Assembly: GCA_025812035.1 (NCBI GenBank)
Contig: GCA_025812035.1_4719.1
Length of the DNA: 64,000 bases
Origin: a phage
Reading direction: 5' to 3' (one strand)
Shown here: piece by piece, positions 7,615 through 61,456 of the stretch
How the letters are laid out: every line of letters begins with the position of its first letter
Position numbering within the stretch: the first letter of the stretch is position 1
The notes under the pieces: model-generated
What the model saw: only the letters and a program-made list of their open reading frames with translations
What the model was told of the DNA's origin: nothing
Database searches by the model: none
Program-made: the position numbers and the translations under genes

Positions 7615-7647
7615 GACGGCATAAAAGCCTCCCGTATTGGGAGGCTC
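7615..7647 (-). terminator. GC hairpin followed by TTTATGCCG
   Basis: stem AGCCTCCC/GGGAGGCT, then TTTATGCCGTC on the minus strand. Confidence 0.5.
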
Positions 7648-7658
7648 CATTAATCGGC

Positions 7659-8207
7659 TTATTTCACAAGGACAGCGAATTCGAGAACGTAAATAGCTTC
7701 ATCGTCCATCGGATTTGTCGTGGTATAACCAACGAAGCAATAACCCATAAGCGAGATAAACTCGCTAAGTTTATCGATGACTGATGCCTCGATACGATCG
7801 TCAACAGACAGACGACATTTACGGGTTATGCTACATCCGCGAGGAACGCCAGATAATACGGATAGGAAATGCACGATCCGGTTATTGGTTGTGAACTGTG
7901 CATAATCGTCGTAGTGTTTAAGGTCTTTCATCGTAACCTCTACCGCCACACGGCGATCGGGTGCTACGTATTCAGAGTACGCATACGATGCGATCGTACG
8001 ACGATCTTCAGTTAGGTAAGTATTCCCATCAGGATGATAGCTTTCGATTGTTCCGTCTTCATAGGTGATGGTTACAACAGGTGCGCCGTATTCGTCGCGA
8101 CCGAAATCAACTTTACATTTGTCCGAAAGCGGTAGAACCGTACAAGGCTTTGCATTGTTCTCATCAGGGAGATCGTAACCACTCATCATTTTCAAGAACA
8201 TAGACAT
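7659..8207 (-). CDS. hypothetical protein (182 aa), paralog of 8294..8827
   Basis: shares NNAKP and TIA(S/T)YAYS segments and overall length with the adjacent ORF. Confidence 0.55.
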   Translation of the reverse strand: MSMFLKMMSGYDLPDENNAKPCTVLPLSDKCKVDFGRDEYGAPVVTITYEDGTIESYHPDGNTYLTEDRRTIASYAYSEYVAPDRRVAVEVTMKDLKHYDDYAQFTTNNRIVHFLSVLSGVPRGCSITRKCRLSVDDRIEASVIDKLSEFISLMGYCFVGYTTTNPMDDEAIYVLEFAVLVK

Positions 8208-8293
8208 AATAGAACCTCATGATAATAGATAATAGAAATGATAGATAGTACAACAAATTGAGGGGGTATTATCCCACCCCCTCGTAGGGATTG

Positions 8294-8827
8294 CTACTTA
8301 ACGATCGCGATGATTTTGCCGCCCGCACCGGCGTAATATGCCGTTAACTTACCAGTAAACAACTCTTGTAAAAGACGATTTACGTGACTAACAAAGTTAG
8401 GATTGTCTGATTTTACAAAATCGATGTTTCGCGTTTGTTTTATATCACGATCGATTAAGCGTATTTCCAACAACGCACAAATAAGGCGATCGTCGAGTTT
8501 ACCACTCGTATCCAGCACTTCCCCATACTTCGTAGCACGGACGTCCGCATACATACGGTCAACATCATCCTTCCCAAAACCACAGGAATAGGCGTACGTT
8601 GCGATGGTATTACCATTGTCCATCACGTAAACGTTACCGCCTGGGTAATCGATAAATCGTTGATCCTTATCACCATGAGCGACGAACTCCAGTGTCGGTC
8701 TACCCATCGAATCACGGTTGAATTCAATTGTGGTCAAGCGATCTGGTACCACATGCAACGTAAACGGTTTTGCGTTGTTACGATCGCTAGTATCGCAGTT
8801 AGCCATTACTTTTACAATAACACTCAT
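8294..8827 (-). CDS. hypothetical protein (177 aa), paralog of 7659..8207
   Basis: tandem duplicate of neighbour. Confidence 0.55.
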   Translation of the reverse strand: MSVIVKVMANCDTSDRNNAKPFTLHVVPDRLTTIEFNRDSMGRPTLEFVAHGDKDQRFIDYPGGNVYVMDNGNTIATYAYSCGFGKDDVDRMYADVRATKYGEVLDTSGKLDDRLICALLEIRLIDRDIKQTRNIDFVKSDNPNFVSHVNRLLQELFTGKLTAYYAGAGGKIIAIVK

Positions 8828-8901
8828 GTTTTATTCCTTAGTAGTCCTAGTAGTAGTATTGAGGAATTTCACCTCATTAGATAGTCTATTTTGGTAATGT
8901 T

Positions 8902-9201
8902 TTACTGAAACAAGACATTAAATTCGACGAGATACCCATCGGATCTATCACCACGATATCTGTTGCAGAAAACACCGAATTTCATCAAGAACTCACATAA
9001 CTCTTCGGCTTTGTATAGCGGAATACGATTTTCGTCGAGCAGAGGGCACTTATGGCTAACCCGCTCCGACGAATCAACGCAACACAAATAAAGAAGGAAT
9101 CGAACAATAGCTCGGTTCTTAGTGAAGCTCTCGAATTCACCTGCGGTTCTGAACTCATCGAGGAGCTTTGTCGTTTTCTTCAATCGTTCACGATCAAGCA
9201 T
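8902..9201 (-). CDS. hypothetical protein (99 aa)
   Basis: complete ORF, minus-strand array. Confidence 0.45.
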   Translation of the reverse strand: MLDRERLKKTTKLLDEFRTAGEFESFTKNRAIVRFLLYLCCVDSSERVSHKCPLLDENRIPLYKAEELCEFLMKFGVFCNRYRGDRSDGYLVEFNVLFQ

Positions 9202-9213
9202 GTTAACCTCAAT

Positions 9214-9256
9214 ACGAACATAACCCTCCTCCTTCCCTTACGGGTTGGAGGAGGGG
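9214..9256 (-). terminator. GC hairpin followed by TTATGTTCG
   Basis: stem ACCCTCCTCC/GGAGGAGGGG. Confidence 0.45.
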
Positions 9257-9264
9257 ATATGCTG

Positions 9265-9579
9265 TTATTCTGTTTTCGGTGTTGAACCGTTCTTCTTGAA
9301 GTCGGATTCGTATTTCACGTTAGAATCGAGAACCTCACGAACGGTTTTATCCGTACAACCACGAGCGATGTATGCATTAAGATCGTCACGTAATTTACGC
9401 ATCGTTGTTTTATCCGCATCAGAAACATCTGACTTGGTAAGACGGAATGCGATTGCGTCGCGAATCTTATTCAGCATTGCTGGGTTATTACGCTGTTCTG
9501 TAAATACCGCTTTGATGAATTTATCGCTATCTTTCGAAGCGATGGCGGCATCAAGAATCTCAATATGCTTTTCAGACAT
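9265..9579 (-). CDS. hypothetical protein (104 aa)
   Basis: complete ORF, minus-strand array. Confidence 0.5.
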   Translation of the reverse strand: MSEKHIEILDAAIASKDSDKFIKAVFTEQRNNPAMLNKIRDAIAFRLTKSDVSDADKTTMRKLRDDLNAYIARGCTDKTVREVLDSNVKYESDFKKNGSTPKTE

Positions 9580-15559: not shown

Positions 15560-15588
15560 CTTTATCTCCTTAACGGTTGCTGGTAACG

Positions 15589-15617
15589 CGGCATAAACCC
15601 TCCCCGAAGGGAGGGTG
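15589..15617 (-). terminator. GC hairpin followed by TTTATGCCG
   Basis: stem CCCTCC/GGAGGG, then TTTATGCCGCG. Confidence 0.5.
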
Positions 15618-17506: not shown

Positions 17507-17589
17507 TTTAAAGGGACATCCCCGGCCTCCTCCCCGGGAAAGGTGCGGGGAGGAGTTTTTACATACTTTCTATTAATTCGAGCGCGATT

Positions 17590-19678: not shown

Positions 19679-19711
19679 GCTCTGCCTGATGTCAGGCAGA
19701 GCTTTATGCTG
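19679..19711 (+). terminator. hairpin followed by TTTATGCTG after the SNF2 helicase gene
   Basis: stem GCTCTGCCTGA/TCAGGCAGAGC, then TTTATGCTG. Confidence 0.6.
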
Positions 19712-19748
19712 CGTTTACTGCAAAATCGTATGACGTATATACGTCGTA

Positions 19749-21247: not shown

Positions 21248-21288
21248 CTTCCTCCCCGCCCATAACGGGCGGGGAGGAAGGTTTATGC
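21248..21288 (+). terminator. 14-bp perfect GC hairpin between convergent genes, followed by GTTTATGCGC
   Basis: stem CTTCCTCCCCGCCC/GGGCGGGGAGGAAG, loop ATAAC. Confidence 0.6.
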
Positions 21289-21297
21289 GCTTATGAC

Positions 21298-22526: not shown

Positions 22527-22594
22527 ACATGCTCCGGTTATAAGGGTCTGTTTCCAGACCCCTCGTTGATTTTTGATTTCACCAAACGCTATCG

Positions 22595-27490: not shown

Positions 27491-27651
27491 AATCTCATTT
27501 CCTCTTCTACGTTAGGATAGATGACATGTTGGATATATGTTGCCTTTGCATATATTGCTTTATTTCCGTCAGAAATAACGGAAAAATAAACAACAACATA
27601 AAACCCTCCCACCTCCACGCGGGAGAGGGAGGGCGATTGGTTAATCTTTCG

Positions 27652-28388: not shown

Positions 28389-28455
28389 ACCAGGGATCCT
28401 CTTTTAAGTGGTCACATTCTAGTGTTAAGCAGTTAAAATAAACCGTCCCTTTAAT

Positions 28456-28496
28456 CAGCATAAACATCCTCCTCCCACCACATGGGCAGGAGGAGG
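28456..28496 (-). terminator. GC hairpin followed by TTTATGCTG
   Basis: stem CCTCCTCC/GGAGGAGG. Confidence 0.45.
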
Positions 28497-31490: not shown

Positions 31491-31531
31491 ACCCTCCCGC
31501 GACGTTAAGCGTAGGGAGGGTATTTATGCCG
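31491..31531 (+). terminator. GC hairpin followed by TATTTATGCCG after plus-strand gene
   Basis: stem ACCCTCCC/GGGAGGGT. Confidence 0.5.
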
Positions 31532-31550
31532 TCGTCTATGGTTTAACGCA

Positions 31551-40722: not shown

Positions 40723-40840
40723 TCTGTTCTCCCCAAGCTTTTCATTTCATAGAGTGGTGGAAATTCGTAGAAAGTTACAAAAATAAAAAAGAATGGGCAG
40801 CCCCTCCCCACCCGAAGGTAGGGAGAGACCACAGATATAT

Positions 40841-42222: not shown

Positions 42223-42256
42223 GATTGTCCTCGTTTTTCAATTTAAGATTACATAC

Positions 42257-42290
42257 GGCATAAACCCTCCCCGCCTTATGCAGGGAGGGT
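42257..42290 (-). terminator. GC hairpin followed by TTTATGCCG
   Basis: stem CCCTCC/GGAGGG, then TTTATGCCGTATG. Confidence 0.5.
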
Positions 42291-46284: not shown

Positions 46285-46320
46285 GGGGTATCTCCTACAA
46301 ATGAAAAAGAACGTTAGGAC

Positions 46321-46350
46321 GTATAAGGGAGGGAGGTTGCCCTCCCTCCC
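46321..46350 (-). terminator. 10-bp perfect GC hairpin after the 631-aa gene, followed by TTATAC
   Basis: stem GGGAGGGAGG/CCTCCCTCCC, loop TTGC. Confidence 0.6.
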
Positions 46351-48314: not shown

Positions 48315-48336
48315 GAATCAGCTTCTACTCGCTCAT

Positions 48337-48361: not shown

Positions 48362-48385
48362 TTTTTTTCAATATTGGTGTAACCG

Positions 48386-49621: not shown

Positions 49622-49624
49622 TCA

Positions 49625-49685
49625 CCTCATCCCTTTCCTTGCATCCTCCCAACCCGTAAAGGGAAGGGAGGATGAGGGTATTATG
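49625..49685. terminator. long hairpin between convergent genes
   Basis: CCTCATCC..GGATGAGG outer stem with inner CTCCC/GGGAG; TTATG on both flanks. Confidence 0.45.
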
Positions 49686-51839
49686 TTACTCTGCGGCTTC
49701 TTGCTTCGGTAAATAACTTGCAGCGATATCTTGAGCTAACAATGTATTATTTTTATTCGAGATGAAAATACCGTAACTTTCCATCAACGCGTAATACGAA
49801 CGAACAAGCGTAGAGATCAGTCGACGAATATCCATACCTTGAATAAAGATATCAGGAAGCCCGGAGGCTTCGATCACCGGTAATGGTATCGTTAAATTAC
49901 TTATTGTTTTCTTATCGTTACGTACAATCCAATCGCGGAAACGTTGTTGTAACCCTTTATCCTCCCATGAATCAATCCAATCATTAAGAAGCGTTTTGTT
50001 CTTCGTCGCCAACGGCACACGAACCCCAACATAAGGAGGTTCGGAGCAATGGCCGTACGATTGAGCAAACACCTCTTCCCACATATCGTAAGACTGTTTC
50101 GTTACTGCAACATGTGGTTTCACTTTAACACGTGTTAAGAAATCGGGGTCACCTCGTTTCATTGACTCAACGATTTCGTTTTCTAACGAGATGATATCAT
50201 CAAGAACCAATCGAATACTGATCTTCTCGTTACGTAACAGCTTATCCATGATACCACACATCATCCGCTCAACACGTTGGACGATCATCTTCGGCGCTGA
50301 TGCGTCGCGCATAACTGGGCCTTTCAATTCCAGCTTCGGTGGATTGATAGGAACCCCTTCACGCATGGTCATGTAACCGTAATAGTTTTTACCCATCGAG
50401 GTTAACGACAGGATCAAGAACATATATTCGTTCTTCATTTCCATCACGTACATATGCTCTTTCGCCACACCGATATTACCAGAGCACATCGCCATCAGAT
50501 GAACCGTGATCTGTGTAACCAGATAGATAAGCGTGTTGGCTAAGCGCGTCGAAACTGGATTGATCTCCATATTCCCAAATCGCCACTGAACCCACTCCTG
50601 ACAGGTAAATACCGTTGAGTCGGTATCGGACAACACCCCCACTTCACGGATCGCTGATGGGAAAGCATAAACACCCGCCGGTTGGTTCTCGGTACGCCAG
50701 AACGCCATAATCAAGTCAGCGTAACCTTGAATACGTTGCAACATTAATTTTGTCGTTGCTGCGGTAAGACGATAACCAAGTTCATTTCCTTTTTCTAGCG
50801 CGACGTAAATCGCTTCTCCATTCAAGAACTCCGTGCATTGTGCTGTAATCCATGCGACGGTGTTGTTATCCATGGAAGCAATAATGGCTTTAGCTTCTTC
50901 CATCGTTTCAACAGGTTCGGATGCCAGTTCACATAACGAGTCAAGAAAATGACGAACGAATTCAGGATTAAGCTCACGTAACGAGTACAGGTTATTGCTG
51001 TACATATAGCAAGCGCGTTCCAACGGGGTTAAACCAGTGATTAGCTCCCGGATGACCAATTCTTTCTCTGGGTCGAAAGTGTACCGATGCAAGCATTTCG
51101 ATACGTTAGCCCAAACCTCTTCCGGCGTAGGGTAATGCAGTTTGTATTTTACCATCACCTGCTCAATGGCGTTACGATCGCTATTGCGAACAATGCTTAC
51201 GATGTTTTCAATTGCGATATCACAATCGTAATAATGGAAATTGCCTGCCAGGAAGCGTTCATTGTTCGCATTGGCCGAACCTGAAGCGCAGCGACATGTT
51301 GTTGTTAAACTCGGATGCGCAATCGGATTATAAAACGGATTAAACTTGGACGCCTGTGTTCCCGACAAACTGTTGTTATCTAACTTGGTGTTGGTTTGTC
51401 GTTTATCGTGTAGTTCAGCTTCGTCTTTACGTCCGTGTGCTTGTGCTATCGACATTTGTTTCTTTTGTTTCTTACGCAACTTACCGTTTTCAACCGCAAA
51501 GTCGCTTAGCACGCTGGAACGTGTCTCGCGTGGATAACAGTTAGCCCATACCGGCGTGATAATTAAATTATTTTCTTTAATATCGTTGAAATATTGACTG
51601 AACTTGATGACTTCTTTTTCTCGATTTCCTTCGGTACGCTGTGTTAAAACAAGACAGTCGGGATCAACCATCCCGTATTTTCCGCCAGGACGTACCGTAT
51701 CAAGAACAAACTGCAGCGCTTCCTGCTGCGATATCCCACGCATGCGCATTAAGAACAGGGTATAATCCTGCACCGCTTCTTTGGTCATATCCAACGTACG
51801 ACCGTATCCGTTTTCATCGTAAAAGAACGGATTTTCCAT
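49686..51839 (-). CDS. large hypothetical protein (717 aa) with LSDTDS motif; possible nucleotidyltransferase
   Basis: long ORF; GVLSDTDSTVF resembles polymerase motif C, other motifs not confirmed. Confidence 0.55.
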   Translation of the reverse strand: MENPFFYDENGYGRTLDMTKEAVQDYTLFLMRMRGISQQEALQFVLDTVRPGGKYGMVDPDCLVLTQRTEGNREKEVIKFSQYFNDIKENNLIITPVWANCYPRETRSSVLSDFAVENGKLRKKQKKQMSIAQAHGRKDEAELHDKRQTNTKLDNNSLSGTQASKFNPFYNPIAHPSLTTTCRCASGSANANNERFLAGNFHYYDCDIAIENIVSIVRNSDRNAIEQVMVKYKLHYPTPEEVWANVSKCLHRYTFDPEKELVIRELITGLTPLERACYMYSNNLYSLRELNPEFVRHFLDSLCELASEPVETMEEAKAIIASMDNNTVAWITAQCTEFLNGEAIYVALEKGNELGYRLTAATTKLMLQRIQGYADLIMAFWRTENQPAGVYAFPSAIREVGVLSDTDSTVFTCQEWVQWRFGNMEINPVSTRLANTLIYLVTQITVHLMAMCSGNIGVAKEHMYVMEMKNEYMFLILSLTSMGKNYYGYMTMREGVPINPPKLELKGPVMRDASAPKMIVQRVERMMCGIMDKLLRNEKISIRLVLDDIISLENEIVESMKRGDPDFLTRVKVKPHVAVTKQSYDMWEEVFAQSYGHCSEPPYVGVRVPLATKNKTLLNDWIDSWEDKGLQQRFRDWIVRNDKKTISNLTIPLPVIEASGLPDIFIQGMDIRRLISTLVRSYYALMESYGIFISNKNNTLLAQDIAASYLPKQEAAE

Positions 51840-51901
51840 AAATCCTCCAAAAGTTATTTAGACTGTCTACATCATCTCGTATATCTGTTAAAAAAGAAGG
51901 A

Positions 51902-51941
51902 CGGCATAAAAAGAACCGATCCAGCCGAAGCCAGATCGGTT
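51902..51941 (-). terminator. hairpin followed by TTTTTATGCCG
   Basis: stem ACCGATC/GATCGGT. Confidence 0.45.
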
Positions 51942-52137
51942 TAAATGGATAATAACTGACAGAAAGATATCGATGATGTTCGTGAAACAAGATCTTCTCT
52001 CGTGTACATTGATGCCAGATCAGAGGGAGGTTGTAGCACGAGAGGTGGTTCGCCAAAGAAGGAATAAACACGCGAACCTATCTTAGTTTCACTGATGGCA
52101 CTAACCACTCAAAATATATAGTACTGTATGTAAAAGT

Positions 52138-52551: not shown

Positions 52552-52566
52552 AATAGCACCCTTTAT

Positions 52567-53411: not shown

Positions 53412-53949
53412 GAATTCCTTCTATCTCGAGGTTATTCTCGCCTGTCTTCGGTAATAACCCACTGGCTGTTAACATCTGTGTCATCGAGTAGTCAAAACAC
53501 GGAAATATAAGGTTAACGGTTTCCTGGATCGCATCAACATAACTATAAATGGCTTCATAGTACTCACCGTCATGATCCACGCTAACCAGGTTCTGGCACA
53601 GTTCTTCGCTTATCATTTCATATACCGGCGGATAAAACGAATGAAATGGTCGCTGCATACGTAACGACCAGTACTCGTACGTTGTATACTGAAGCACGTC
53701 ATAAGCCGATACGTTAATGCGATCGAAGAAAGCGTACTTGTCCATGTGCTGGTACAGCATCGCCAGCACGGTTTCCAAGCACACTGATATCCGTACACCG
53801 TCATCTTTTCCGTTAAGGAAATTAGGTTTCTGCCGATAGCGTACAAATGCTGACGGCTTTGATTGTACTATTCCACCACCAACCATAACGTCATACTCGT
53901 ATCTAACGTAAAATTGAAATGCCACCAATCTTCTACACGTGGGATCCAC
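53374..53949 (-). CDS. hypothetical protein (191 aa)
   Basis: complete ORF. Confidence 0.45.
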   Translation of the reverse strand: MDPTCRRLVAFQFYVRYEYDVMVGGGIVQSKPSAFVRYRQKPNFLNGKDDGVRISVCLETVLAMLYQHMDKYAFFDRINVSAYDVLQYTTYEYWSLRMQRPFHSFYPPVYEMISEELCQNLVSVDHDGEYYEAIYSYVDAIQETVNLIFPCFDYSMTQMLTASGLLPKTGENNLEIEGIHGYVAFFNVECG

Positions 53950-54353
53950 GTACGAAGGATCTGGTTAACTTCGCTTCGCATTACCGATAAACGACAACGA
54001 AAGTCAAACTTCTCTTCATGACCGTAGTCTTCATGCAAGAAAACTTCATCCAAAACGAACTCAAGTTGCATGTCGACATCGCGACCCGAGATATTTCGTT
54101 TATACAGATACAGTTCAATCGTGTCGTAAAGCAGTGTATGAATATCATAATTTCCGTTCGGTGAGAAGTAAGGTAATCGCTCATCGAACATCGTAAACAG
54201 ATATTCACTGTAGTTTAATAACGGGATGATGTACCGACGTCCTGTCTGTGGTGTGCGAATATGTATCGAAACCTGACTTGGACGCGGAATAACCGACGGC
54301 TTAGAATCGTCTCTCTGAAATTGCTCTAAAGATCGCAACAAAGGTGGCCGCAT
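53868..54353 (-). CDS. hypothetical protein (161 aa)
   Basis: complete ORF. Confidence 0.45.
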   Translation of the reverse strand: MRPPLLRSLEQFQRDDSKPSVIPRPSQVSIHIRTPQTGRRYIIPLLNYSEYLFTMFDERLPYFSPNGNYDIHTLLYDTIELYLYKRNISGRDVDMQLEFVLDEVFLHEDYGHEEKFDFRCRLSVMRSEVNQILRTWIPRVEDWWHFNFTLDTSMTLWLVVE

Positions 54354-54930
54354 TGTAACTCTCCAACGCCCAATTATAAGGCCCTTCTAACATGTGTTCC
54401 CATACGTGAATAAACTCACTACCGAAGACAGGCTCCAGCGCCATGGTAAGATTCGTAAGTTCTGACGCAGCCACGTGGTAAGCATCGACATGCCTATCCA
54501 TCGACGGATCGTCTTCATTGAAAATACGTTCTGTGTCGCCAGCCCGTTCAATAAGTTCGATGATGAGATCTGTCCATGTCTCGTGACACGTCATCGTTTC
54601 CTGTTCTCGACTTAGTATGCCGATGTCTGCGTGAACGCTGGACTCGAACCGGTCTAAAAGGACCCGAAGAACGTGCACCTTGTCGATGTATTTCACCGTT
54701 ATCCAAGAAAGCGGTTGCCATCGACCCAGCATCCATCCGGTACTCGGGAACCCCAAACTCATATAGTACGGGTTGCACGGGACCGAGGACGGAGCGACGT
54801 TGTTTAAATCGTTCCTTAAGGGCAAGGCCCTGTTTAATGTAAACGGGTTCATTGGCGAGTTGTTCTGCTTTTCGTTTTGCGTGAGCCAATCGAAGTTCTT
54901 CCAATTGCCCAAGCCATTCGAATTGTTCAT
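54301..54930 (-). CDS. hypothetical protein; N-terminal 380 nt overlap the upstream ORF in the +1 frame
   Basis: AGGAG RBS before ATG 54928..54930; see frameshift finding. Confidence 0.4.
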   Translation of the reverse strand: MNNSNGLGNWKNFDWLTQNEKQNNSPMNPFTLNRALPLRNDLNNVAPSSVPCNPYYMSLGFPSTGWMLGRWQPLSWITVKYIDKVHVLRVLLDRFESSVHADIGILSREQETMTCHETWTDLIIELIERAGDTERIFNEDDPSMDRHVDAYHVAASELTNLTMALEPVFGSEFIHVWEHMLEGPYNWALESYNAATFVAIFRAISERRF

Positions 54931-55525
54931 CTGTTAGCTCCTGGGGACGTTCAACAACCACACCAGATGGGCAGACATTGATCGTAATGTTAATTGACGG
55001 CATTGCCATCACACGAGGATTACTGTTGCGTACGTGGACAACATGTTCGGTTGCTGATTTACGATCGACGCAATACTCTGTTTCTTGGAACTCAAATGCT
55101 TTTAACGGTGTTGGTTTTGTTTGACGTTTTGGAACACGACCAAGATCAACAATATAGGCGTAATCACAAACACGTTCTATTCCGTAAATACGGTTATCCG
55201 ACCAGTTCTTACCAAACAGCTTGTTGTGATGATAAGATAGATATTCGGTTACCATACCCTGAACAACATCGAAGTCTTCTCGAAATTCAGGCTGGTACCA
55301 AATCGGACCGAGAATATCTGCGAACGATTCATGACGATATCGAGGATCGTGTCGGGTCCAGGTCATTCTCTGGTTAAGGTCGAAATCAACCAACAATTCT
55401 GTTAATTGCAGTTTTTCCTTCGGAGAAAGCTGGCGTTGATGATGCAAACTCAGGCAATCGATAAGCGGTAATGAAACCCACGATGCTAATGTGTACAAAT
55501 CGATCCTGGCTAATCTCTTGGTCAT
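54548..55525 (-). CDS. hypothetical protein; C-terminal 40 aa Arg-rich and probably not native
   Basis: coding-like through ..KERFKQRRSVLGPV then degenerates; overlaps 54301..54930. Confidence 0.4.
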   Translation of the reverse strand: MTKRLARIDLYTLASWVSLPLIDCLSLHHQRQLSPKEKLQLTELLVDFDLNQRMTWTRHDPRYRHESFADILGPIWYQPEFREDFDVVQGMVTEYLSYHHNKLFGKNWSDNRIYGIERVCDYAYIVDLGRVPKRQTKPTPLKAFEFQETEYCVDRKSATEHVVHVRNSNPRVMAMPSINITINVCPSGVVVERPQELTDEQFEWLGQLEELRLAHAKRKAEQLANEPVYIKQGLALKERFKQRRSVLGPVQPVLYEFGVPEYRMDAGSMATAFLDNGEIHRQGARSSGPFRPVRVQRSRRHRHTKSRTGNDDVSRDMDRSHHRTY

Positions 55526-55616
55526 ACTCTTTTCCTAAGTCCCCATTGTTTATACACACGATATCTGGGAATAGTTAAAATATACGGCGTATAGCGAAAC
55601 AGGAGAGTTTCTGACG

Positions 55617-55937
55617 TCATTTTCTCCCTCTTCGAATACCACCGATACCTCTTCGATCCAAGACGTCCCATGCACGTTTTATTTCATCCTCCGTTGCTCT
55701 GGTATCTGGAGGGACAACCATAACACAATCGTGGAATGGCCAGTGCGTCGGTCTAGGGTCAGCAAATAGATTATCCCATTCAAGCGTCCATGATTGCTTT
55801 GAACGATTATAGTAGATCGTAAGGTACGTATTAGTGTACGCTGGGTAACCACGCATAACTTCAACATCTTTACGATCCTGCCGTTCCTGATTCCAATCGT
55901 TAAATCGTTTTCTTATTTTATCCCATCGCTTTCCCAT
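55617..55937 (-). CDS. hypothetical protein (start at ATG 55935..55937)
   Basis: AGGAG RBS before internal ATG; longer form would include the terminator hairpin. Confidence 0.45.
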   Translation of the reverse strand: MGKRWDKIRKRFNDWNQERQDRKDVEVMRGYPAYTNTYLTIYYNRSKQSWTLEWDNLFADPRPTHWPFHDCVMVVPPDTRATEDEIKRAWDVLDRRGIGGIRRGRK

Positions 55938-55950
55938 GCTTTCTCCTACA

Positions 55951-55982
55951 CGGCATAAAAGCCTGCCCCGAAGGACAGGCTC
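55951..55982 (-). terminator. GC hairpin followed by TTTTATGCCG
   Basis: stem AGCCTG/CAGGCT with GC-rich interior. Confidence 0.5.
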
Positions 55983-55990
55983 GATAGAAC

Positions 55991-56191
55991 TTAACGACCA
56001 TCCAATTTCAACGAAGGATGGTTGACGATATGTGCGTGTTTTGCTGGGTCGTATGGCAGATATGGAAAATAACCATGCCATTCACGACCTTGGCATTTCG
56101 TACACACGAACTGACCACCGCTCCGTTGATTCTCGTAAGCGAGTTCAGTACTATCAACATGACCGCAACGTTCGCAGATAAACAGCGACAT
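55991..56191 (-). CDS. small zinc-ribbon protein (66 aa)
   Basis: CERCG..(18)..CTKCQG Cys pairs. Confidence 0.4.
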   Translation of the reverse strand: MSLFICERCGHVDSTELAYENQRSGGQFVCTKCQGREWHGYFPYLPYDPAKHAHIVNHPSLKLDGR

Positions 56192-56228
56192 AACGCATCC
56201 CCATTCACTTGAACCTTTCGGTTCTGCA

Positions 56229-57209
56229 TTAGAATAGCAAGAAACCGCTGTTCTTCGCTTCCGCTACAGTTTCGTCACCAACTTTCGGTGCCTGTTGACG
56301 CGCGTTACGATGTTCAATGTAACGTTTCGCTTCGTCAGCGATTTGTTTGATAATACCCCCTAAACGATCGGTACTTAAAACAAACGACGTCGCTTCACGG
56401 ATTGGGCTGCTGTCAGGCACAAAACCGTCACAACTGTAAATAGCGTTAACACCCATGACTTTTGTCGCGTCTTTCGGATAAAGCGTACAGAAAGCAATGG
56501 GGCTATCGTTCTCTTTTGTCCAATCGTATCCCATGAACGTATTCAGTTCGGTGATCGTTGGTTCCAAACCGGTAACACGTGGATGGTTCAAGAAGTTTTC
56601 CAGGTCAGCGCTGTCAAGACGACGGTTCTCACCAGAAAACAGAACACAAAGCTGGCTAATAACAACCTGCACGTCCAGGTTGACATCCTGCTCCGATTTC
56701 CCATTTTCGCCATTCATGTGATAGCTGACGATCACCGGACGTTTCAACCCTTCTGCGGCTGCCATCAGTCCTTTAAAGGTGCGGTCTGCGTTGATCGTCT
56801 GACGCTCATCATCGAACGAGGCAACGATGCAACATACCACACGTTCACCGCGTTCCAGCAGGTTAGCAACCAACGCAGGACCTGCAACAGAACCCGAACC
56901 ACCGCTTAAACTAAAGACCACGATATTAAATTTACCTGGCGTATGTTTGTTGAGAATACCTGGGATTTGTGAACAGATCAGTTCAGCGTTCTCGTCACGC
57001 TTCTTACCCGAACCGTCTAACTCGCGGCCTGCTGCATCTTTAAAGATGTAAATATGATCATCGTCCAGTGTGCTATCGCGTAGGTTAGCACGGCTGGTAT
57101 CGACATACGTCATGCTGTGTAATCCTTTCGCGACTTCGCCTTCAAACGCTGAGCCGATTTCGCCACCACAACCGCCGACAGCCCAAATATGTACTTGGTT
57201 CTCTTGCAT
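56229..57209 (-). CDS. phuZ: PhuZ-like phage tubulin (tubulin/FtsZ GTPase fold)
   Basis: N-terminal AVGGCGGEIGSA nucleotide-binding segment and SLSGGSGSVAGP tubulin signature (GGGTGSG-like); length 326 aa. Confidence 0.75.
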   Translation of the reverse strand: MQENQVHIWAVGGCGGEIGSAFEGEVAKGLHSMTYVDTSRANLRDSTLDDDHIYIFKDAAGRELDGSGKKRDENAELICSQIPGILNKHTPGKFNIVVFSLSGGSGSVAGPALVANLLERGERVVCCIVASFDDERQTINADRTFKGLMAAAEGLKRPVIVSYHMNGENGKSEQDVNLDVQVVISQLCVLFSGENRRLDSADLENFLNHPRVTGLEPTITELNTFMGYDWTKENDSPIAFCTLYPKDATKVMGVNAIYSCDGFVPDSSPIREATSFVLSTDRLGGIIKQIADEAKRYIEHRNARQQAPKVGDETVAEAKNSGFLLF

Positions 57210-57273
57210 GTGAACTCCTAACTTAGTATGTATTTAACGCACAATGAATCTTTCTTTACTAAAGGGGTGACCC

Positions 57274-58116
57274 ATGGGTGCTATTGACTACAGTGTAGAT
57301 CGTATCTGTCGTACAATACCGGCAGATATCCTACAGTATTGCTATATCGATCGTTACGACTGGCGTAACCGATATCCACGTTCCGTCGAAGACATCATTA
57401 CCGATTGGGTAATTCGTAAACGGGTTATCGGCGACATTGATATCTACGGGGGACTACAAACCGTTGTTCCCCTTGATGATGCAGGTGTTACTATCGAAGA
57501 AGTCACCATTAACTGTTATGTTTTCCATATTCCATTGGAAGCCACACAGGGACGTTATATCACGTCCGCATTATCCATTATTTCAGGGAGTGTGAACAAC
57601 TACGGTATAAACTATAACGGTCAATGGGGCGCTTTCAACCAAACCCAGTTCCAACGACAGCTTTGCGGATGGAACCCTGCAAGCAACACATTACAGCAAG
57701 GGATGAACGCATTCGGTCCCATGAACGTTCTTAGTACAGCGAACGTTGATATCATCGCTCCTAACACCATCATGGTGAACAACGTCACGCCTGTGCAGTT
57801 TCCACTGAGTCTACGTTGTTTCCTTGCCCACGATCCGGAACTCACCAACCTCAGCATGGAGGTTTGGAACGACTTCTACAAACTCTGTTTATATGCCACA
57901 CAAAGTGACATTTACAACAGAACCGTTATCCGTCTTGATAGAGGTGTTACCGCACAAGGACAAGAAGTCGGTGCATTCAAGGAATACATCGACCGCTTTG
58001 CTGACGCTGAAAACACGTATCAAGAATTCCTGAACGAAACGTGGGCAGGTGTTGCCGCATGGAACGATCCACAAACTAAACGTCGCGCTATTCGTTTGCA
58101 AACCGGTTACTTCTGA
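57274..58116 (+). CDS. hypothetical protein (280 aa, plus-strand island)
   Basis: ATG preceded by AAAGGGGTGA; hairpin downstream. Confidence 0.5.
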   Translation: MGAIDYSVDRICRTIPADILQYCYIDRYDWRNRYPRSVEDIITDWVIRKRVIGDIDIYGGLQTVVPLDDAGVTIEEVTINCYVFHIPLEATQGRYITSALSIISGSVNNYGINYNGQWGAFNQTQFQRQLCGWNPASNTLQQGMNAFGPMNVLSTANVDIIAPNTIMVNNVTPVQFPLSLRCFLAHDPELTNLSMEVWNDFYKLCLYATQSDIYNRTVIRLDRGVTAQGQEVGAFKEYIDRFADAENTYQEFLNETWAGVAAWNDPQTKRRAIRLQTGYF

Positions 58117-58643
58117 TTAGCTACCGCTTCCTCCCTCGGTGTTTTCGAGGGAGGTATTTGCCGTTTGAATACTTTCAGCATGTTCGCAAATTTAGCCGCG
58201 ATGACACAGGCCGAAGCCGATAGTTTATTGCTGAAGATAAGATCGTCCGGCAAACAATCGAAATGAATACCGTATTCGGTCTTTGTCTCTTCAACAATCA
58301 ACGACAACGCTGGTCTTGTCTTCTTAATGTCGGTGGTATACAAACGTAAGAACGTTTCACCGTCTTCGCTATCCGTTAAACGATAAGCGTTTCCAGAAAA
58401 CTCAACGTGTGGTGTAACGATATATTGAACACGATCGTCGGCAGGATGGATATTTAACCAACGTGTCATATCGCTGCTACTCACATTTTGCATATTTACT
58501 ACGGTAAAAGCAAATAGCGTATCGTTTTGTTTGGAATAATGCAACACATATGCCGCATCTTTCTTTCCGTGAATCCCTTCAATATACTCTATTAACGTAT
58601 AGCCTGATTTATATAGCTTTACTTGCGGTTTCTCGTTCATCAT
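58107..58643 (-). CDS. hypothetical protein (start at ATGATG overlapping upstream stop)
   Basis: ATGA overlap with 58640..58939. Confidence 0.5.
   Translation of the reverse strand: MMNEKPQVKLYKSGYTLIEYIEGIHGKKDAAYVLHYSKQNDTLFAFTVVNMQNVSSSDMTRWLNIHPADDRVQYIVTPHVEFSGNAYRLTDSEDGETFLRLYTTDIKKTRPALSLIVEETKTEYGIHFDCLPDDLIFSNKLSASACVIAAKFANMLKVFKRQIPPSKTPREEAVANQK
58130..58163 (+). terminator. GC hairpin followed by TATTTGCCG after plus-strand gene
   Basis: stem CCTCCCTCG/CGAGGGAGG. Confidence 0.5.
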
Positions 58644-58939
58644 AACAACCCTTCCCGTTTCATCGCAGCACGCATACTTGCGTAAAGCGCATTCTTCATT
58701 GCACCTGGACGCAACGGATAACAAATCTCATATCGACGTCCTTGTTTCACAGCAATTTTCCTTCCATTCAAAAACAGCGTGCCATTATCCAGCAGCAACT
58801 CACCTTGTAGTACCATGAGTCCTGCTTTAACGTGACGTCCTTCTTCTTTAGTTAAGACCTTATAACCGTGTTTATCCAGTAACCACAATTCGTAGATACC
58901 GTGCGCAGCCTTCGGCATTACTTTCTTCTTCGTCGTCAT
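58640..58939 (-). CDS. hypothetical protein (99 aa)
   Basis: complete ORF. Confidence 0.45.
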   Translation of the reverse strand: MTTKKKVMPKAAHGIYELWLLDKHGYKVLTKEEGRHVKAGLMVLQGELLLDNGTLFLNGRKIAVKQGRRYEICYPLRPGAMKNALYASMRAAMKREGLL

Positions 58940-58951
58940 GGAAGATCCTCC

Positions 58952-59326
58952 TTAAACCCCTTGTCGGACCATCACCAACCGGAGCATGTTGTATTCCAAT
59001 GTAGCGCTTTCTAATTCGAATTCATATCGATACCAGAAATTCGGTTCTAATTGACCTACAACACATTTACGAACTTCGGTCTGCACCTTCCTTGACAATC
59101 CCTGTAATAGTTGCGTTATCTCCGGCTTGAAGTAATACGCCAAACCTAACTGGTCAGAATAAAACAGGCCACAATCAAAGATGGCCTGTAAAATAACATA
59201 TTCAACCATCAGGTGTCGCGCGTCAGGTTCAGGAAACGGCGAACGTAAAGCGAGGTCTAACACATCGACGATTGGGCCGACATAAACGGCGGCACGGTAC
59301 TCACGAATAACACTGATGTTATCCAT
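58952..59326 (-). CDS. hypothetical protein (124 aa)
   Basis: complete ORF. Confidence 0.45.
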   Translation of the reverse strand: MDNISVIREYRAAVYVGPIVDVLDLALRSPFPEPDARHLMVEYVILQAIFDCGLFYSDQLGLAYYFKPEITQLLQGLSRKVQTEVRKCVVGQLEPNFWYRYEFELESATLEYNMLRLVMVRQGV

Positions 59327-59339
59327 GGTAGCCTATTCG

Positions 59340-60164
59340 TTAACTGTCGCTTTCCGACGTATCGATGTAGTTGAAAATACGATCCCGTAAACACTCGTAA
59401 CGAGGCAACGCGCTAAGAATGATCATCTTCAGCTGCATCGCGATCGATGTACGTTCTTCGTCCGATGCGTCGTCTCCCCATTTACCCGGCATAACCTGAA
59501 TGGGTTCGTTCGGATCATGCGGAAATATAAAACTTAACAACAGATAATCCGTGCGGAACTCCCACACTTCCCGACCGTCGTTATCGGTTTCTTTACGCAA
59601 TGTGAAGAGTTGACGTTCGGTGGTTGGATCCAACATCAATGGTCGACCACGGACGATCTCCAGTTTACGCGGACTGACGAACGTTGTACGTTCCGGAAGG
59701 TACTTTTCAACATCGTCTGTATCCAGCAAGAACAAAATGATATCGTCGAAATACTTCGGTGCGTACGTGTGTATCGGTTCACCGTCGGTATACGAAGAGA
59801 TCTCTTGAAGTATCGGCGTCTTATACGAGAAGTTCTGGCACGAACCACGAGTGATCGGTAAGGTGTTCCACTGATGCTCTGTAGACAATTCAACAGGCAC
59901 CAACGGATAGTCATCAATGAACACCACACACGTTGTGCTGACGGGTATTCTTCCATCGTTGCCTGGTTCAAAAACCAAACGTATCTTACCGGTAATTAAC
60001 GCCATCTCATCCGGCATTAAATGGCTTGCTGAACGGGCGAGTCTGAAACCGCTCGCCTGTTTATAAGGTTCGGGTTTATATCCACGTACGATAAGAGAGA
60101 TATCCGCAAGTTCAACGCTCACGAATGCGTTTTCGGTATCTTCATTGTTCGTCGTTAACGTCAT
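59340..60164 (-). CDS. hypothetical protein (274 aa)
   Basis: complete ORF. Confidence 0.5.
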   Translation of the reverse strand: MTLTTNNEDTENAFVSVELADISLIVRGYKPEPYKQASGFRLARSASHLMPDEMALITGKIRLVFEPGNDGRIPVSTTCVVFIDDYPLVPVELSTEHQWNTLPITRGSCQNFSYKTPILQEISSYTDGEPIHTYAPKYFDDIILFLLDTDDVEKYLPERTTFVSPRKLEIVRGRPLMLDPTTERQLFTLRKETDNDGREVWEFRTDYLLLSFIFPHDPNEPIQVMPGKWGDDASDEERTSIAMQLKMIILSALPRYECLRDRIFNYIDTSESDS

Positions 60165-61179
60165 TGTTCATTTTCTCCGTTACAACAAATCGTTCAAGTT
60201 CACGTAATAAACGCTCTTTTAACGCAGGATCAACTTCCGGAGCATGTTTATCACGATACCATTCTGTCCCGTTGTATTGCAGGCTAACATGCCATGTTCC
60301 TAACGGGCTTTCCTCTGCAGCAGCGATGAAATTCTTAACACCGGTTTTGGTAGGATACTCCATGATAGGAACAGCCTGCTTCAGATCCATTACAGTAAGA
60401 TCCTGGAAGTTATAATCCAGGAGCGTTAACGCACGATTCTTGCGTAACAGTAACCCGCAATCCAAGATAGTGAAATCGATACCCCAGAAACGTAACTTGC
60501 CTCCAACCCCAACAGGAGTATGGCCACGATAAACCGCAAGATAAATTTCACCTTTATCGGTTTCTTTGTTGTATCCGGCAATGAAAGCCGCTGTGATTAA
60601 TGGTTGGTGTCCTTTTGCTAAGAAGACGGGGTGGTTTTGATACAACCAGTCACTACGAATCAGATCGGTAACCTGACCTAAACGTGCGGTTGGTACCATC
60701 GTTGATCCTAAAGTCTCATCAACAGGAATCTGATAATACTCGAACAGAACACCGTCGACTTCTTCGGTAGCGTAAGGGGTACGTGCGGGATCGTTAAGCA
60801 GCTTACGGAGTTTTGTGTCGATTTCATTAACGCGATTATCATGTTCTTTCTCACGGCTACCGATCACAAAAGCAACAAGATTGCGTACGCTAACAAAAAC
60901 ATCATCTTTTTCCGTGTCACTGAGATCAGCTTCATCAGGCATTGTTGTCCAATGTAGTGGTCCTTCAACAACCTTAAGCCATTTATCTTCGCGTTCAGGA
61001 TAAACAAAAGGCTTATGCACAGGAACACTGGTGTGCTGAACACGTAATAACAGATTGCATAACGACGGTAATGTTTTCTCTAAAGGTGGGACAATACCTG
61101 ATGTAACGGAAATAACGTAGCGATTAAGAACAAGAGAAGCTGAATAGGTAATGTTATCTAATCCTGGTAATTGATCCAT
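60142..61179 (-). CDS. hypothetical protein (345 aa)
   Basis: complete ORF; AAGGA RBS; 300-nt AT-rich leader upstream. Confidence 0.5.
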   Translation of the reverse strand: MDQLPGLDNITYSASLVLNRYVISVTSGIVPPLEKTLPSLCNLLLRVQHTSVPVHKPFVYPEREDKWLKVVEGPLHWTTMPDEADLSDTEKDDVFVSVRNLVAFVIGSREKEHDNRVNEIDTKLRKLLNDPARTPYATEEVDGVLFEYYQIPVDETLGSTMVPTARLGQVTDLIRSDWLYQNHPVFLAKGHQPLITAAFIAGYNKETDKGEIYLAVYRGHTPVGVGGKLRFWGIDFTILDCGLLLRKNRALTLLDYNFQDLTVMDLKQAVPIMEYPTKTGVKNFIAAAEESPLGTWHVSLQYNGTEWYRDKHAPEVDPALKERLLRELERFVVTEKMNNDVNDEQ

Positions 61180-61433
61180 GATAGAAATCCTTAGTATGTT
61201 TGATATGTTGTTTAATTGACATATTAAGTTTAAAAGAGGTTATGTTTTACGTATGGTTAATAAAGTATTCTTATCTCTATTAAGTTACGTTCTATCTAAA
61301 GATAGTAAACTGATATAATGCTCCCCACCGCCCCATTCTCCCAAGTAATACTGGCCTACCGGCCCTCTCCTTTTTAAGGGAGAGAGTAAGCATTCAGTAT
61401 TGCTCAAATGAATAAGCAAAACAGTATAAACTT

Positions 61434-61456
61434 ACCGTCTTGAGATTTCAAGACGG
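61434..61456 (-). terminator. hairpin followed by U-rich tract
   Basis: stem CCGTCTTG/CAAGACGG. Confidence 0.45.

What the first reader, a model, noticed from the sequence alone, without database searches (positions are those of the whole stretch)
7615..61456. Gene ends marked by GC-rich hairpins followed by a conserved TTTATG(C)CG tail
At least 13 intergenic sites share the same architecture in the orientation of the upstream gene: a 7 to 14-bp GC-rich stem-loop followed immediately by TTTATGCCG or a close variant (7615, 9214, 15589, 19703, 21281, 27594, 28456, 31522, 42257, 51902, 55951; weaker at 46321 and 58155). It occurs after plus-strand genes in plus orientation and after minus-strand genes in minus orientation, so it is tied to transcript 3' ends. 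A stem-loop followed by TTAT is, from memory, the terminator form described for phiKZ-like phages; the fixed ATGCCG extension could also be the start of a downstream promoter.
Basis: partly seen in the sequence, partly recalled or inferred. Interest (0 to 1): 0.5.

Follow-up and report, generated by a model that had tools for sequence, protein, structure and literature searches.

The report
phiKZ-type terminators in a Goslar-like phage
The repeated "GC-rich hairpin plus TTTATGCCG" sites are real. They match the transcription-terminator signal already mapped in phiKZ-like giant phages, seen here in an E. coli relative, so the finding is correct but largely ordinary.

Summary
The window is about 91-94% identical to Escherichia phage Goslar, a phiKZ-like "nucleus-forming" jumbo phage. 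Sixteen sites consist of a clean GC-rich hairpin (dG -13.5 to -32.6 kcal/mol) followed within 0-5 nt by TTAT and usually G-Y-Y-G. Fourteen hairpins begin 5-26 nt, one 33 nt and one 198 nt after the stop codon of a gene on the same strand. Enrichment is far above chance: 8 full tails among 67 compact hairpins against 0.10 expected, and exact TTTATGCCG occurs 6 times against 0.56. The element matches the published phiKZ terminator consensus BCCYCCCCHWWDGGGRRGGBYTTATKYYGT. In phiKZ, mapped RNA 3' ends fall 4-8 nt after the stem, inside the tail. A scan of viral contigs shows the same hairpin-TTATG-YYGT in 201phi2-1, PhiPA3 and Noxifer relatives. Four sites face a convergent gene yet keep the tail, 41 listed phiKZ late start sites include none at a hairpin-adjacent TTATG, and hairpin-less tail copies occur only at chance level. 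Verdict: a new member of a known kind. No RNA data exist for this phage, and why the non-U-rich tail is conserved remains open.

The parts
7616..7645 (-). Terminator after the gp143 homologue: GCCTCCC-AATAC-GGGAGGC + TTTTATGCCGT
   Evidence: 13 nt after the stop; matches the full phiKZ consensus with 3 mismatches; dG -14.8, z -3.6. Goslar annotates a terminator at the orthologous position.
9214..9255 (-). Terminator after the gp146 homologue: 9+3 bp hairpin + TTATGTTCGT
   Evidence: 9 nt after the stop; dG -24.8, z -5.2. The top of the hairpin is inverted relative to Goslar.
15588..15615 (-). Terminator after the gp157 homologue: CCCTCCC-TTCG-GGGAGGG + TTTATGCCGC
   Evidence: 10 nt after the stop; dG -14.6.
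19679..19712 (+). Terminator after the helicase gp160 homologue: 10-bp hairpin + TTTATGCTGC
   Evidence: 7 nt after the stop; dG -20.1, z -4.6. Goslar annotates a terminator here.
21248..21291 (+). Terminator after the gp161 homologue, facing the convergent gp162 homologue: 14-bp hairpin + GTTTATGCGCT. The minus-strand side reads ATATGCTAAC.
   Evidence: convergent; dG -32.6, z -6.8.
22534..22561 (-).
   Evidence: 33 nt after the stop; dG -13.5. One compensatory base-pair change relative to Goslar.
27593..27633 (-). Terminator after the gp168 homologue: 12-bp hairpin + TTTTATGTTGT
   Evidence: dG -21.0. Exact match to the 3' half of the phiKZ consensus. Goslar has AACTATGTCG here.
28455..28496 (-). 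Terminator after the gp170 homologue: 12-bp hairpin + ATGTTTATGCTGA
   Evidence: 11 nt after the stop; dG -22.7, z -5.3. 100% identical in Goslar although the gp170 protein is only 52% identical.
31492..31533 (+). Terminator after the gp172 homologue, facing the convergent gp173 homologue: hairpin + TATTTATGCCGTC. The minus-strand side reads TTATCTTAAG.
   Evidence: 5 nt after the stop, convergent; dG -17.0.
42255..42289 (-). Terminator after the gp184 homologue: CCCTCCC..GGGGAGGG + TTTATGCCGT
   Evidence: dG -20.9. Exact match to the 3' half of the phiKZ consensus.
46317..46350 (-). Variant terminator after the nuclear-shell gene (chmA): GGGAGGGAGG-GCAA-CCTCCCTCCC + TTATACGTCC
   Evidence: 26 nt after the stop; dG -23.6. 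Identical in Goslar.
49637..49689 (+).
   Evidence: convergent; dG -27.1, z -4.7.
51902..51941 (-). Terminator in the 298-nt spacer upstream of the DNA polymerase gene: 12-bp hairpin + CTTTTTATGCCG
   Evidence: also found by the T-run scan; dG -17.9. Goslar annotates a terminator here.
55950..55980 (-). Terminator after the gp235 homologue: GCCTGTCC-TTCG-GGGCAGGC + TTTTATGCCGT
   Evidence: 10 nt after the stop; dG -15.7. Goslar annotates a terminator here.
58130..58164 (+). Variant terminator after the gp233 homologue, facing a convergent gene: CCTCCCTCGG..CGAGGGAGG + TATTTGCCGT (no AT step)
   Evidence: 13 nt after the stop, convergent; dG -18.7, z -4.8.
61422..61456 (-). Variant terminator after the gp227 homologue: 9-bp hairpin + TAAGTTTATACTG
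   Evidence: 25 nt after the stop; dG -13.5, z -5.0. One compensatory T-A to C-G change relative to Goslar.
59155..59188 (-). Candidate only: hairpin + TTTTATTCTG inside the gp230 coding region
   Evidence: Intragenic, so membership is uncertain.
61856..61892 (-). Candidate only: hairpin + TGCGCTTTATGCGATG inside the 3' part of the gp226 homologue, upstream of the gp227 start
   Evidence: One compensatory change relative to Goslar. Intragenic, so membership is uncertain.
8250..8283 (-). Related post-gene hairpin with a different tail (AATTTGTTGT), after the gp144 homologue
   Evidence: (10 nt after the stop). Goslar annotates a terminator here.
17527..17565 (+). CCTCCCC/GGGGAGG hairpin with a plain T-run tail (TTTTTACATA), 34 nt upstream of the helicase gene in a divergent spacer
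   Evidence: One compensatory G-C to A-T change relative to Goslar. Goslar annotates a terminator here.
40781..40832 (-). 16-bp hairpin after the gp182 homologue with tail CCATTCTTTTTTATTT
   Evidence: 8 nt after the stop; dG -27.8.

Best explanation
These are the factor-independent transcription terminators characteristic of phiKZ-like (chimallivirus) jumbo phages, here in a Goslar-type E. coli phage. As the phage's own multisubunit RNA polymerases transcribe past a gene end, the RNA folds into a very stable C-rich/G-rich hairpin. The next bases, U-U-U-A-U-G-Y-Y, form a short and mostly weak RNA:DNA hybrid, and the transcript is released about 4-8 nt after the stem. That places the 3' end inside the conserved tail, at latest just before the conserved G of ...GCC|GT. 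The sites therefore delimit transcription units of about five genes and insulate the few plus-strand genes from the surrounding minus-strand genes. Shown here: the sequence architecture, its statistical association with hairpins, its position and orientation relative to genes, purifying selection on the stems, and identity with the published phiKZ motif. Shown elsewhere for phiKZ and 201phi2-1: RNA 3' ends at such sites and termination in reporter assays. Inferred: that termination occurs at these sites in this phage, where exactly the RNA ends, and which polymerase responds.
For: 1. Identity of the phage. The window is 87-94% identical to Goslar across the aligned blocks and encodes its split RNA polymerase beta subunits, the nuclear shell protein and PhuZ.
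2. Association with hairpins. 8 of 67 compact hairpins carry the full tail against 0.10 expected. In the whole Goslar genome, 17 of 370 compact hairpins carry TTATG against 1.9 expected.
3. Position. Of the 16 sites, 14 hairpins begin 5-26 nt after the stop codon of a co-oriented gene (the others at 33 and 198 nt), and all 16 are co-oriented with that gene.
4. Match to the published motif. The 3' half of the phiKZ consensus finds 5 window sites against 0.13 expected, two of them exact. The full 30-nt consensus finds one site against 0.00 expected. The motif text is in PMC10914365, and the 201phi2-1 motif A is reported to resemble it (PMC11512511).
5. Mapped phiKZ 3' ends. They fall 4-8 nt after the stem, for example GGGAGGGC-TTTATGTT|GT (T057) and ATTATGTC|GT (T051).
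6. Experimental termination. Eight 201phi2-1 terminators were selected at >99% termination efficiency in the sequencing data and tested in a two-reporter assay in P. chlororaphis; four outperformed and two equalled the lambda T0 control.
7. Spread across the family. The pattern CCCTCCC-N3-8-GGGAGGG-N0-3-TTATG gave at least 120 stretches in viral contigs, mostly on 220-325 kb contigs. These include 201phi2-1 itself, a distant PhiPA3 relative and a Noxifer relative. The four unconstrained bases after TTATG are Y 84%, Y 90%, G 63%, T 62%.
8. Selection. Between the window and Goslar, paired stem positions differ at 2.0%, loops at 25% and flanks at 7-11%. Compensatory pair changes occur at 61435, 61872, 22544 and 17527.
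9. Folding. All 16 sites fold as a single hairpin with a free tail, z-scores -2.7 to -6.8.
Against: There are no transcript-end data for this phage or for Goslar, so function is transferred from phages that share no detectable DNA similarity with it. The tail is not more conserved than neighbouring sequence between the window and Goslar (8.3% against 6.7-11.3%). Two Goslar orthologues have altered tails: TTCATG at 19703 and AACTATG at 27594. The sites lack a canonical U-tract. A standard scan requiring a hairpin plus at least 5 T in 8 bases misses most of them and finds no excess over shuffles (17 against 18.1). The 3' ends mapped in phiKZ could partly reflect exonuclease trimming back to a stable hairpin rather than the true release point.
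Confidence: 0.85

Rival explanations
1. The tail is, or doubles as, a late promoter for the phage non-virion RNA polymerase. TATG with initiation at the G is the phiKZ late-promoter core, so each site would be a terminator-promoter module that restarts transcription for the next gene.
For: [quoted passage not shown] At tandem sites the next start codon lies 23-80 nt downstream, a plausible leader length. Several Goslar late genes have a hairpin-free TATG 40-60 nt upstream. At 27594 Goslar lost the T-run but kept TATG.
Against: Four sites (21248, 31492, 49637, 58130) face a convergent gene yet keep the tail. In the part of the phiKZ start-site table that was read, none of the 41 late promoters starts at a hairpin-adjacent TTATG. 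The nearest case, P075, starts 10 nt beyond terminator T064 at a separate TATG. The model late promoter P119L has no upstream hairpin. The position after TTAT is G or T in phiKZ, and G, A or T in Goslar. Late promoters show no conservation downstream of TATG, whereas the tail has conserved YYGT. Hairpin-less TTATGYYG copies occur only at about the chance number, roughly 10 observed against about 8 expected from base composition (count; expectation is my own estimate). The retention of TATG at 27594 is also explained by a 31-codon ORF annotated as starting there.
Confidence: 0.07
2. The hairpins are mainly RNA 3'-end protection or processing elements. Transcription continues past them, and 3'-to-5' exonucleases trim back to the stem, creating the observed ends and stabilising upstream mRNAs.
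For: Ends 4-8 nt downstream of a stable stem are also what exonuclease stalling produces (general knowledge of PNPase and RNase II, not tested here). The U-tract is short. [quoted passage not shown]
Against: A purely structural block would not need a conserved 9-nt tail, yet the tail is conserved across phages of different hosts. 201phi2-1 elements reduce expression of a downstream reporter in vivo. The phiKZ termination sites were called from a drop of at least 20% in read coverage across the site.
Confidence: 0.06
3. GGAGG in the 3' arm plus the ATG 4-5 nt later is a ribosome-binding site and start codon for small ORFs or for the next gene.
For: The spacing resembles a Shine-Dalgarno plus start codon. 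The Goslar annotation starts gp183 and the 31-codon gp167 at exactly this ATG.
Against: ORFs opening at the tail ATG run 3-30 codons with unrelated sequences. In the window the gp183 frame from that ATG stops after 7 codons. The GGAGG is buried in a very stable stem. Variants lack the ATG altogether (TTATACG, TTATAACC, TATTTGCCG). Convergent sites carry the tail too.
Confidence: 0.02

Closest known systems
Conserved intrinsic terminator motif of Pseudomonas phage phiKZ (Putzeys et al. 2024, PMC10914365): BCCYCCCCHWWDGGGRRGGBYTTATKYYGT
   Same: C-rich 5' arm and G-rich 3' arm, a short loop, TTAT 0-3 nt after the stem, then K-Y-Y-G-T. Located after gene ends, and sometimes shared by convergent genes. 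Two window sites match the 3' half exactly.
   Different: The host is E. coli, and there is no DNA similarity to the Pseudomonas phages. Here the base after TTAT is mostly G and the next two are mostly CC. No transcript ends have been mapped in this phage.
Terminator motif A of Pseudomonas phage 201phi2-1 (Poppeliers et al. 2024, PMC11512511)
   Same: Reported to resemble the phiKZ motif strongly. 201phi2-1 itself was recovered by my pattern scan. Eight 201phi2-1 terminators were tested in vivo, and six performed at least as well as the lambda T0 control.
   Different: Those elements were assayed in Pseudomonas. Co-occurring motifs that lengthen the stem were described there, and I did not look for them here.
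Canonical bacterial intrinsic (Rho-independent) terminator: GC-rich hairpin plus a 7-9 nt U-tract
   Same: A hairpin directly after a gene, with the RNA end expected within about 8 nt of the stem and the first 2-4 tail bases being U.
   Different: The U-tract is interrupted (UUUAUGCC), and the tail has its own conserved sequence, including a downstream G. A standard T-run rule misses most sites.
phiKZ non-virion RNA polymerase late promoter, 5'-TATG-3' with +1 at the G (PMC4666361, PMC12809450)
   Same: The same four bases occur in the tail.
   Different: Late promoters have no adjacent upstream hairpin and no conserved bases after TATG. The tail occurs at convergent gene ends and tolerates A or T in place of G.
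Elemental pause consensus of E. coli RNA polymerase (G at -10, pyrimidine at -1, G at +1; recalled from the literature, not checked here)
   Same: If the RNA ends at ...UUUAUGCC, then -1 is a pyrimidine, +1 is the conserved G, and -10 lies in the G-rich 3' arm.
   Different: This is only a resemblance. The polymerases are highly divergent phage enzymes, and no pausing data exist.

Membership tests
phiKZ-type (chimallivirus) intrinsic terminator | Stable GC-rich stem-loop, typically with a CCYCCC 5' arm and a GGGRGG 3' arm | tested here: met
   All 16 sites fold as a single hairpin, dG -13.5 to -32.6, z -2.7 to -6.8. Ten of the 16 have CCTCC/GGAGG-type arms.
phiKZ-type (chimallivirus) intrinsic terminator | TTAT within a few bases of the stem, followed by K-Y-Y-G-T | tested here: met
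   8 of 67 compact hairpins against 0.10 expected. The 3' half of the published consensus gives 5 hits against 0.13 expected, two of them exact. The variants at 46317, 58130, 61422 and 22534 match only partly.
phiKZ-type (chimallivirus) intrinsic terminator | Located downstream of, and co-oriented with, a gene end (intergenic or at convergent gene pairs) | tested here: met
   All 16 sites are co-oriented. 14 begin 5-26 nt after the stop codon, one at 33 nt and one at 198 nt. Four lie at convergent pairs.
phiKZ-type (chimallivirus) intrinsic terminator | The genome encodes the split multisubunit virion and non-virion RNA polymerases of phiKZ-like phages | tested here: met
   The window encodes proteins 99% identical to Goslar gp165, gp171 and gp247, annotated as RNA polymerase beta subunits, plus the nuclear shell protein and PhuZ. 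This rests on annotation, not biochemistry.
phiKZ-type (chimallivirus) intrinsic terminator | RNA 3' ends accumulate a few nucleotides after the stem in infected cells | not testable with these tools
   Known only for phiKZ and 201phi2-1. No RNA data exist for this phage.
phiKZ-type (chimallivirus) intrinsic terminator | Reduces downstream transcription when placed between two reporters | not testable with these tools
   Done for eight 201phi2-1 elements.
Canonical bacterial intrinsic terminator | Hairpin followed by a U-rich tract (at least 5 T in 8 bases) | tested here: not met
   In 40001-60000 the T-run rule finds 51902-51941 and the intragenic candidate at 59155-59188. It misses 42255, 46317, 49637, 55950 and 58130. 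Total hits were 17 against 18.1 in shuffles.
phiKZ non-virion RNA polymerase late promoter | TATG placed upstream of a co-oriented (late) gene | tested here: not met
   TATG is present at 12 of 16 sites, but four sites face a convergent gene and most neighbouring genes are non-structural.
phiKZ non-virion RNA polymerase late promoter | A primary transcript 5' end at the G of TATG | not testable with these tools
   In phiKZ, none of the 41 late start sites in the table part read lies at a hairpin-adjacent TTATG.

The most novel reading that the evidence does not exclude
The family-wide conserved tail TTATG-YYGT is not just a poor U-tract. It would be a sequence signal read by the phage's own non-canonical RNA polymerases during elongation. 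For example, the beta-lobe pocket that binds non-template TATG at late promoters could engage the same four bases as they pass through the transcription bubble right after the hairpin forms, pausing the enzyme so that a hairpin with only 3-4 U residues suffices for release. Promoter and terminator recognition would then share one protein-DNA contact. This could explain why TATG alone does not specify promoters, and why the motif persists from Pseudomonas to E. coli phages.
Probability: 0.12. Interest if true: 0.65.

Novelty: new member of a known kind. Interest (0 to 1): 0.27.

Why it matters
For this phage, the sites give a ready-made map of transcription-unit boundaries. They also correct some annotation: two Goslar genes are started at the terminator's ATG. 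They show that the phiKZ terminator signal extends beyond Pseudomonas phages to an E. coli chimallivirus that shares no DNA similarity with them. That makes the motif a useful annotation mark for this phage family and a source of compact terminators. The one open question it sharpens is mechanistic: how do the sigma-less, split RNA polymerases of these phages terminate, and why has a specific non-U-rich tail been retained across the family?

Tried and rejected
- Energy-only hairpin scans were too noisy. Long imperfect intragenic folds swamped the signal, so I switched to compact near-perfect hairpins.
- A covariance model trained on mapped phiKZ terminators was abandoned because MAFFT misaligned the stems. 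I used the published consensus as an independent pattern instead.
- Rfam at gathering thresholds found nothing in the window.
- The PMC versions of both transcriptome papers hold no supplements. The bioRxiv version did, and I used it. I read only one of four parts of each phiKZ table.
- Ceyssens et al. 2014 is not held.
- The ChmC eCLIP paper, the Grad-seq paper and the RNA polymerase review contain nothing on these hairpins.
- None of the IMG/VR loci recovered by the motif scan resembles the window at the DNA level, and I did not search otherwise. The selection analysis therefore rests on one genome pair.
- Pfam on the window-specific ORFs gave only DUF7448.
- Ideas considered and rejected: the tail as a translation start (short unrelated ORFs), and the tail as an autonomous element (hairpin-less copies at chance level).

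Full report
**What the window is.** A 20-kb piece of the window matches Escherichia phage vB_EcoM_Goslar at 94% identity, and nothing else in the phage collection matches at that stringency. The whole window aligns to Goslar positions 126,654-188,633 at 87-93% identity, with a few insertions and replaced segments. Goslar is a phiKZ-like jumbo phage. The region encodes homologues of its split RNA polymerase beta subunits, the nuclear shell protein, PhuZ tubulin and a DNA polymerase.

- All 13 coordinates show a GC-rich stem-loop followed by the stated tail, read in the direction of the gene that ends upstream.
- Exact TTTATGCCG occurs six times against 0.56 expected, and no shuffle of 100 reached six. 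All six copies follow hairpins.
- Plain TTTATG is not enriched overall (38 against 47 expected). What is special is the coupling to hairpins.
- I catalogued compact, near-perfect hairpins on both strands (dG <= -11, at most 2 unpaired stem bases). Of 67, 12 have TTAT within 0-4 nt (1.95 expected, P=5e-7) and 8 have TTAT[GT][CT][CTG]G (0.10 expected, P=1e-13).
- In the whole Goslar genome, fetched compact hairpin-strands include 42 with TTAT (11.7 expected) and 17 with TTATG (1.9 expected).
- All 16 window sites fold into a single hairpin with a free tail (dG -13.5 to -32.6 kcal/mol, z -2.7 to -6.8).

**Gene context.** I transferred Goslar's coding sequences onto the window.
- Fourteen of the 16 hairpins begin 5-26 nt after the stop codon of a gene on the same strand. 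The other two begin at 33 nt (22534) and 198 nt (51902).
- All 16 are co-oriented with that gene.
- Each of the five plus-strand genes that end inside the window is followed by a plus-oriented site.
- Four sites (21248, 31492, 49637, 58130) are followed by the end of a convergent gene rather than by a gene they could serve. They still carry the tails GTTTATGCGC, TATTTATGCCGT, TATTATGTTA and TATTTGCCGT.
- At 21248 and 31492 the opposite strand also reads TATGCT or TTATC directly after the stem, as expected for a terminator shared by two converging genes.

**Selection.**
- Between the window and Goslar, paired stem positions differ at 6 of 304 (2.0%). Loops differ at 20 of 79 (25%). The 30-nt flanks differ at 11.3% and 6.7%, and the 12-nt tails at 8.3%.
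- The stem is therefore strongly constrained as a structure and the loop is free. At this short evolutionary distance the tail is not visibly more constrained than its surroundings.
- Compensatory base-pair changes occur at 61435 (T-A to C-G), 61872, 22544 and 17527.
- Two Goslar orthologues have altered tails: TTCATG at 19703 and AACTATG at 27594.

**What is known.**
- Putzeys et al. mapped 133 phiKZ termination sites by ONT-cappable-seq. [quoted passage not shown]
- Poppeliers et al. found a strongly similar motif in 59 of 132 termination sites of 201phi2-1. They tested eight 201phi2-1 terminators in a two-reporter assay in P. chlororaphis. Six performed at least as well as the lambda T0 control (PMC11512511).
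- Used as an independent pattern, the 3' half of the phiKZ consensus finds five window sites with at most 2 mismatches against 0.13 expected. Two matches are exact, at 27593-27610 and 42255-42272. The full 30-nt consensus finds 7616-7645 against 0.00 expected.
- My hairpin scan of 50 kb of phiKZ shows the same architecture, for example GCCTTCCC..GGGAAGGC-TTTATGTCGT.

**Where the RNA ends relative to the tail.** The bioRxiv supplement lists phiKZ termination positions. I mapped those lying in my 50-kb phiKZ locus onto the sequence. For the motif-type hairpins the 3' ends fall 4-8 nt after the stem:
- TTTTATGC|TGT (T046)
- ATTATGTC|GTT (T051)
- TTTATGTT|GTA (T057)
- TTATGAC|GTT (T060)
- TTATGT|TGT (T065)
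- ATTAT|GTT (T059)
- TTTAT|AA (T050, T064)

The tail therefore lies inside, or right at, the transcript's 3' end. The longest ends stop just before the conserved G. By analogy, RNAs in this phage should end within UUUAUGCC. This step is inferred.

**Spread across the family.** Spot checks identify 201phi2-1 itself, a distant relative of PhiPA3 and a relative of Noxifer. None resembles the window at the DNA level. The pattern did not constrain the bases after TTATG. In 172 unique sites those bases are pyrimidine 84%, pyrimidine 90%, G 63% and T 62%. The 'ATGCCG(T)' extension is thus an integral part of the element, conserved across the family.

[quoted passage not shown] The evidence weighs against it:
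- The convergent sites keep the tail.
- The part of the phiKZ start-site table that I read lists 41 late promoters. None starts at a hairpin-adjacent TTATG, and the closest (P075) starts 10 nt beyond terminator T064 at a separate TATG.
- The model late promoter P119L has no upstream hairpin.
- Late promoters show no conservation after TATG, whereas the tail does.
- The base after TTAT can be T or A.
- Of 20 TTATGYYG copies in the window, about 10 follow strong hairpins. The remainder is about the number expected from base composition, roughly 8 by my estimate.
- This phage has its own promoter family with a different sequence (see 'noticed in passing').

**Other rivals.**
- *Start codon.* A role as Shine-Dalgarno plus start codon is unlikely. 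ORFs opening at the tail ATG run 3-30 codons with unrelated sequences, and the GGAGG is buried in the stem. Goslar nevertheless annotates gp183 and gp167 as starting there.
- *Stability element.* A pure RNA-stability or exonuclease-stop role cannot be excluded for the exact 3' ends. It does not explain the conserved tail or the reporter results for 201phi2-1.

**How canonical are they?** A standard rule (hairpin plus at least 5 T in 8 bases) finds no excess over shuffles in 40001-60000 (17 against 18.1) and misses most of the sites. These are hairpin terminators with an interrupted U-tract and a sequence-specific tail. If the RNA ends at ...UUUAUGCC, the end has a pyrimidine at -1, the conserved G at +1 and a G near -10. 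That resembles the elemental pause consensus of E. coli RNA polymerase, which I recall from the literature and did not check. Together with the promoter-core TATG, this suggests that the phage polymerases may read the tail directly. This is the most novel reading the data allow, and it is untested.

**Verdict.** It is best explained as the phiKZ-type intrinsic terminator, already described and mapped in phiKZ and 201phi2-1, and here documented in a Goslar-type E. coli phage. That makes it a new member of a known kind, of modest interest. The remaining unknown is the function of the conserved tail.

Noticed in passing
window 48337-48361, 41391-41415, 36113-36137, 17421-17445 (all minus strand): A conserved 25-nt motif, TTTCACGGCTATATTACCTAGGTGA (0-6 mismatches), lies in intergenic DNA upstream of the nuclear-shell gene chmA and the homologues of gp182, gp175 and gp159. 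Goslar has 12 copies, all on the minus strand. It resembles phiKZ early (virion polymerase) promoters such as ...TTTAAACAGTATATTACAAAGGTGA, so these are probably this phage's early promoters (phiKZ sequences).
   Followed up: partly
window 6667-7562, 3700-4092, 23738-24440, 20320-21195, 28508-28921: Mosaic differences from Goslar. There is an extra ORF with DUF7448 (6667-7650) and an extra 132-aa ORF (3701-4099). The helicase gene carries an in-frame insertion of about 228 aa (753 aa against 525 aa; no Pfam hit). The C-terminus of the gp161 homologue is replaced, and the gp170 homologue is only 52% identical. Several breakpoints lie within about 70 nt of terminator hairpins (7627, 21248, 28468), which remain conserved.
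   Followed up: partly
window 9224-9255: The central 14 nt of this hairpin (AACCCGTAAGGGAA) are the exact reverse complement of the Goslar sequence (TTCCCTTACGGGTT). The top of the hairpin has flipped between the two phages.
   Followed up: no
window 40001-60000: Matches to the host sigma-70 promoter consensus are fewer than in shuffled sequence (22 against 36.2 +/- 6.2). This fits a phage that does not use the host RNA polymerase.
   Followed up: no
window 42259-42261 and 27598-27600 (Goslar gp183 and gp167 starts): The Goslar annotation starts gp183 and the 31-codon gp167 at the ATG of the terminator tail. In the window the gp183 frame from that ATG stops after 7 codons, so its true start is probably the ATG at 42222. 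Whether gp167 is a real gene is doubtful.
   Followed up: partly
window 59155-59188 and 61856-61892 (minus strand): Two hairpin-plus-TTTAT sites lie inside coding regions (the gp230 and gp226 homologues). The second shows a compensatory change relative to Goslar. They may be internal attenuators or chance matches.
   Followed up: no
window 36162-36203 (minus strand): A very stable 14-bp hairpin (dG -24.3) lies in the 204-nt spacer between the gp176 and gp175 homologues. It is followed directly by ATGCTGAGCG, with no T-run, and then by one of the early-promoter-like motifs. It is identical in Goslar.
   Followed up: no
window 8902-9201 (minus) versus 9052-9285 (plus): A 99-codon minus-strand ORF fills the gap where Goslar annotates only the plus-strand gp145, which overlaps the terminator at 9224-9255. 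The minus-strand ORF fits the local gene order better.
   Followed up: no
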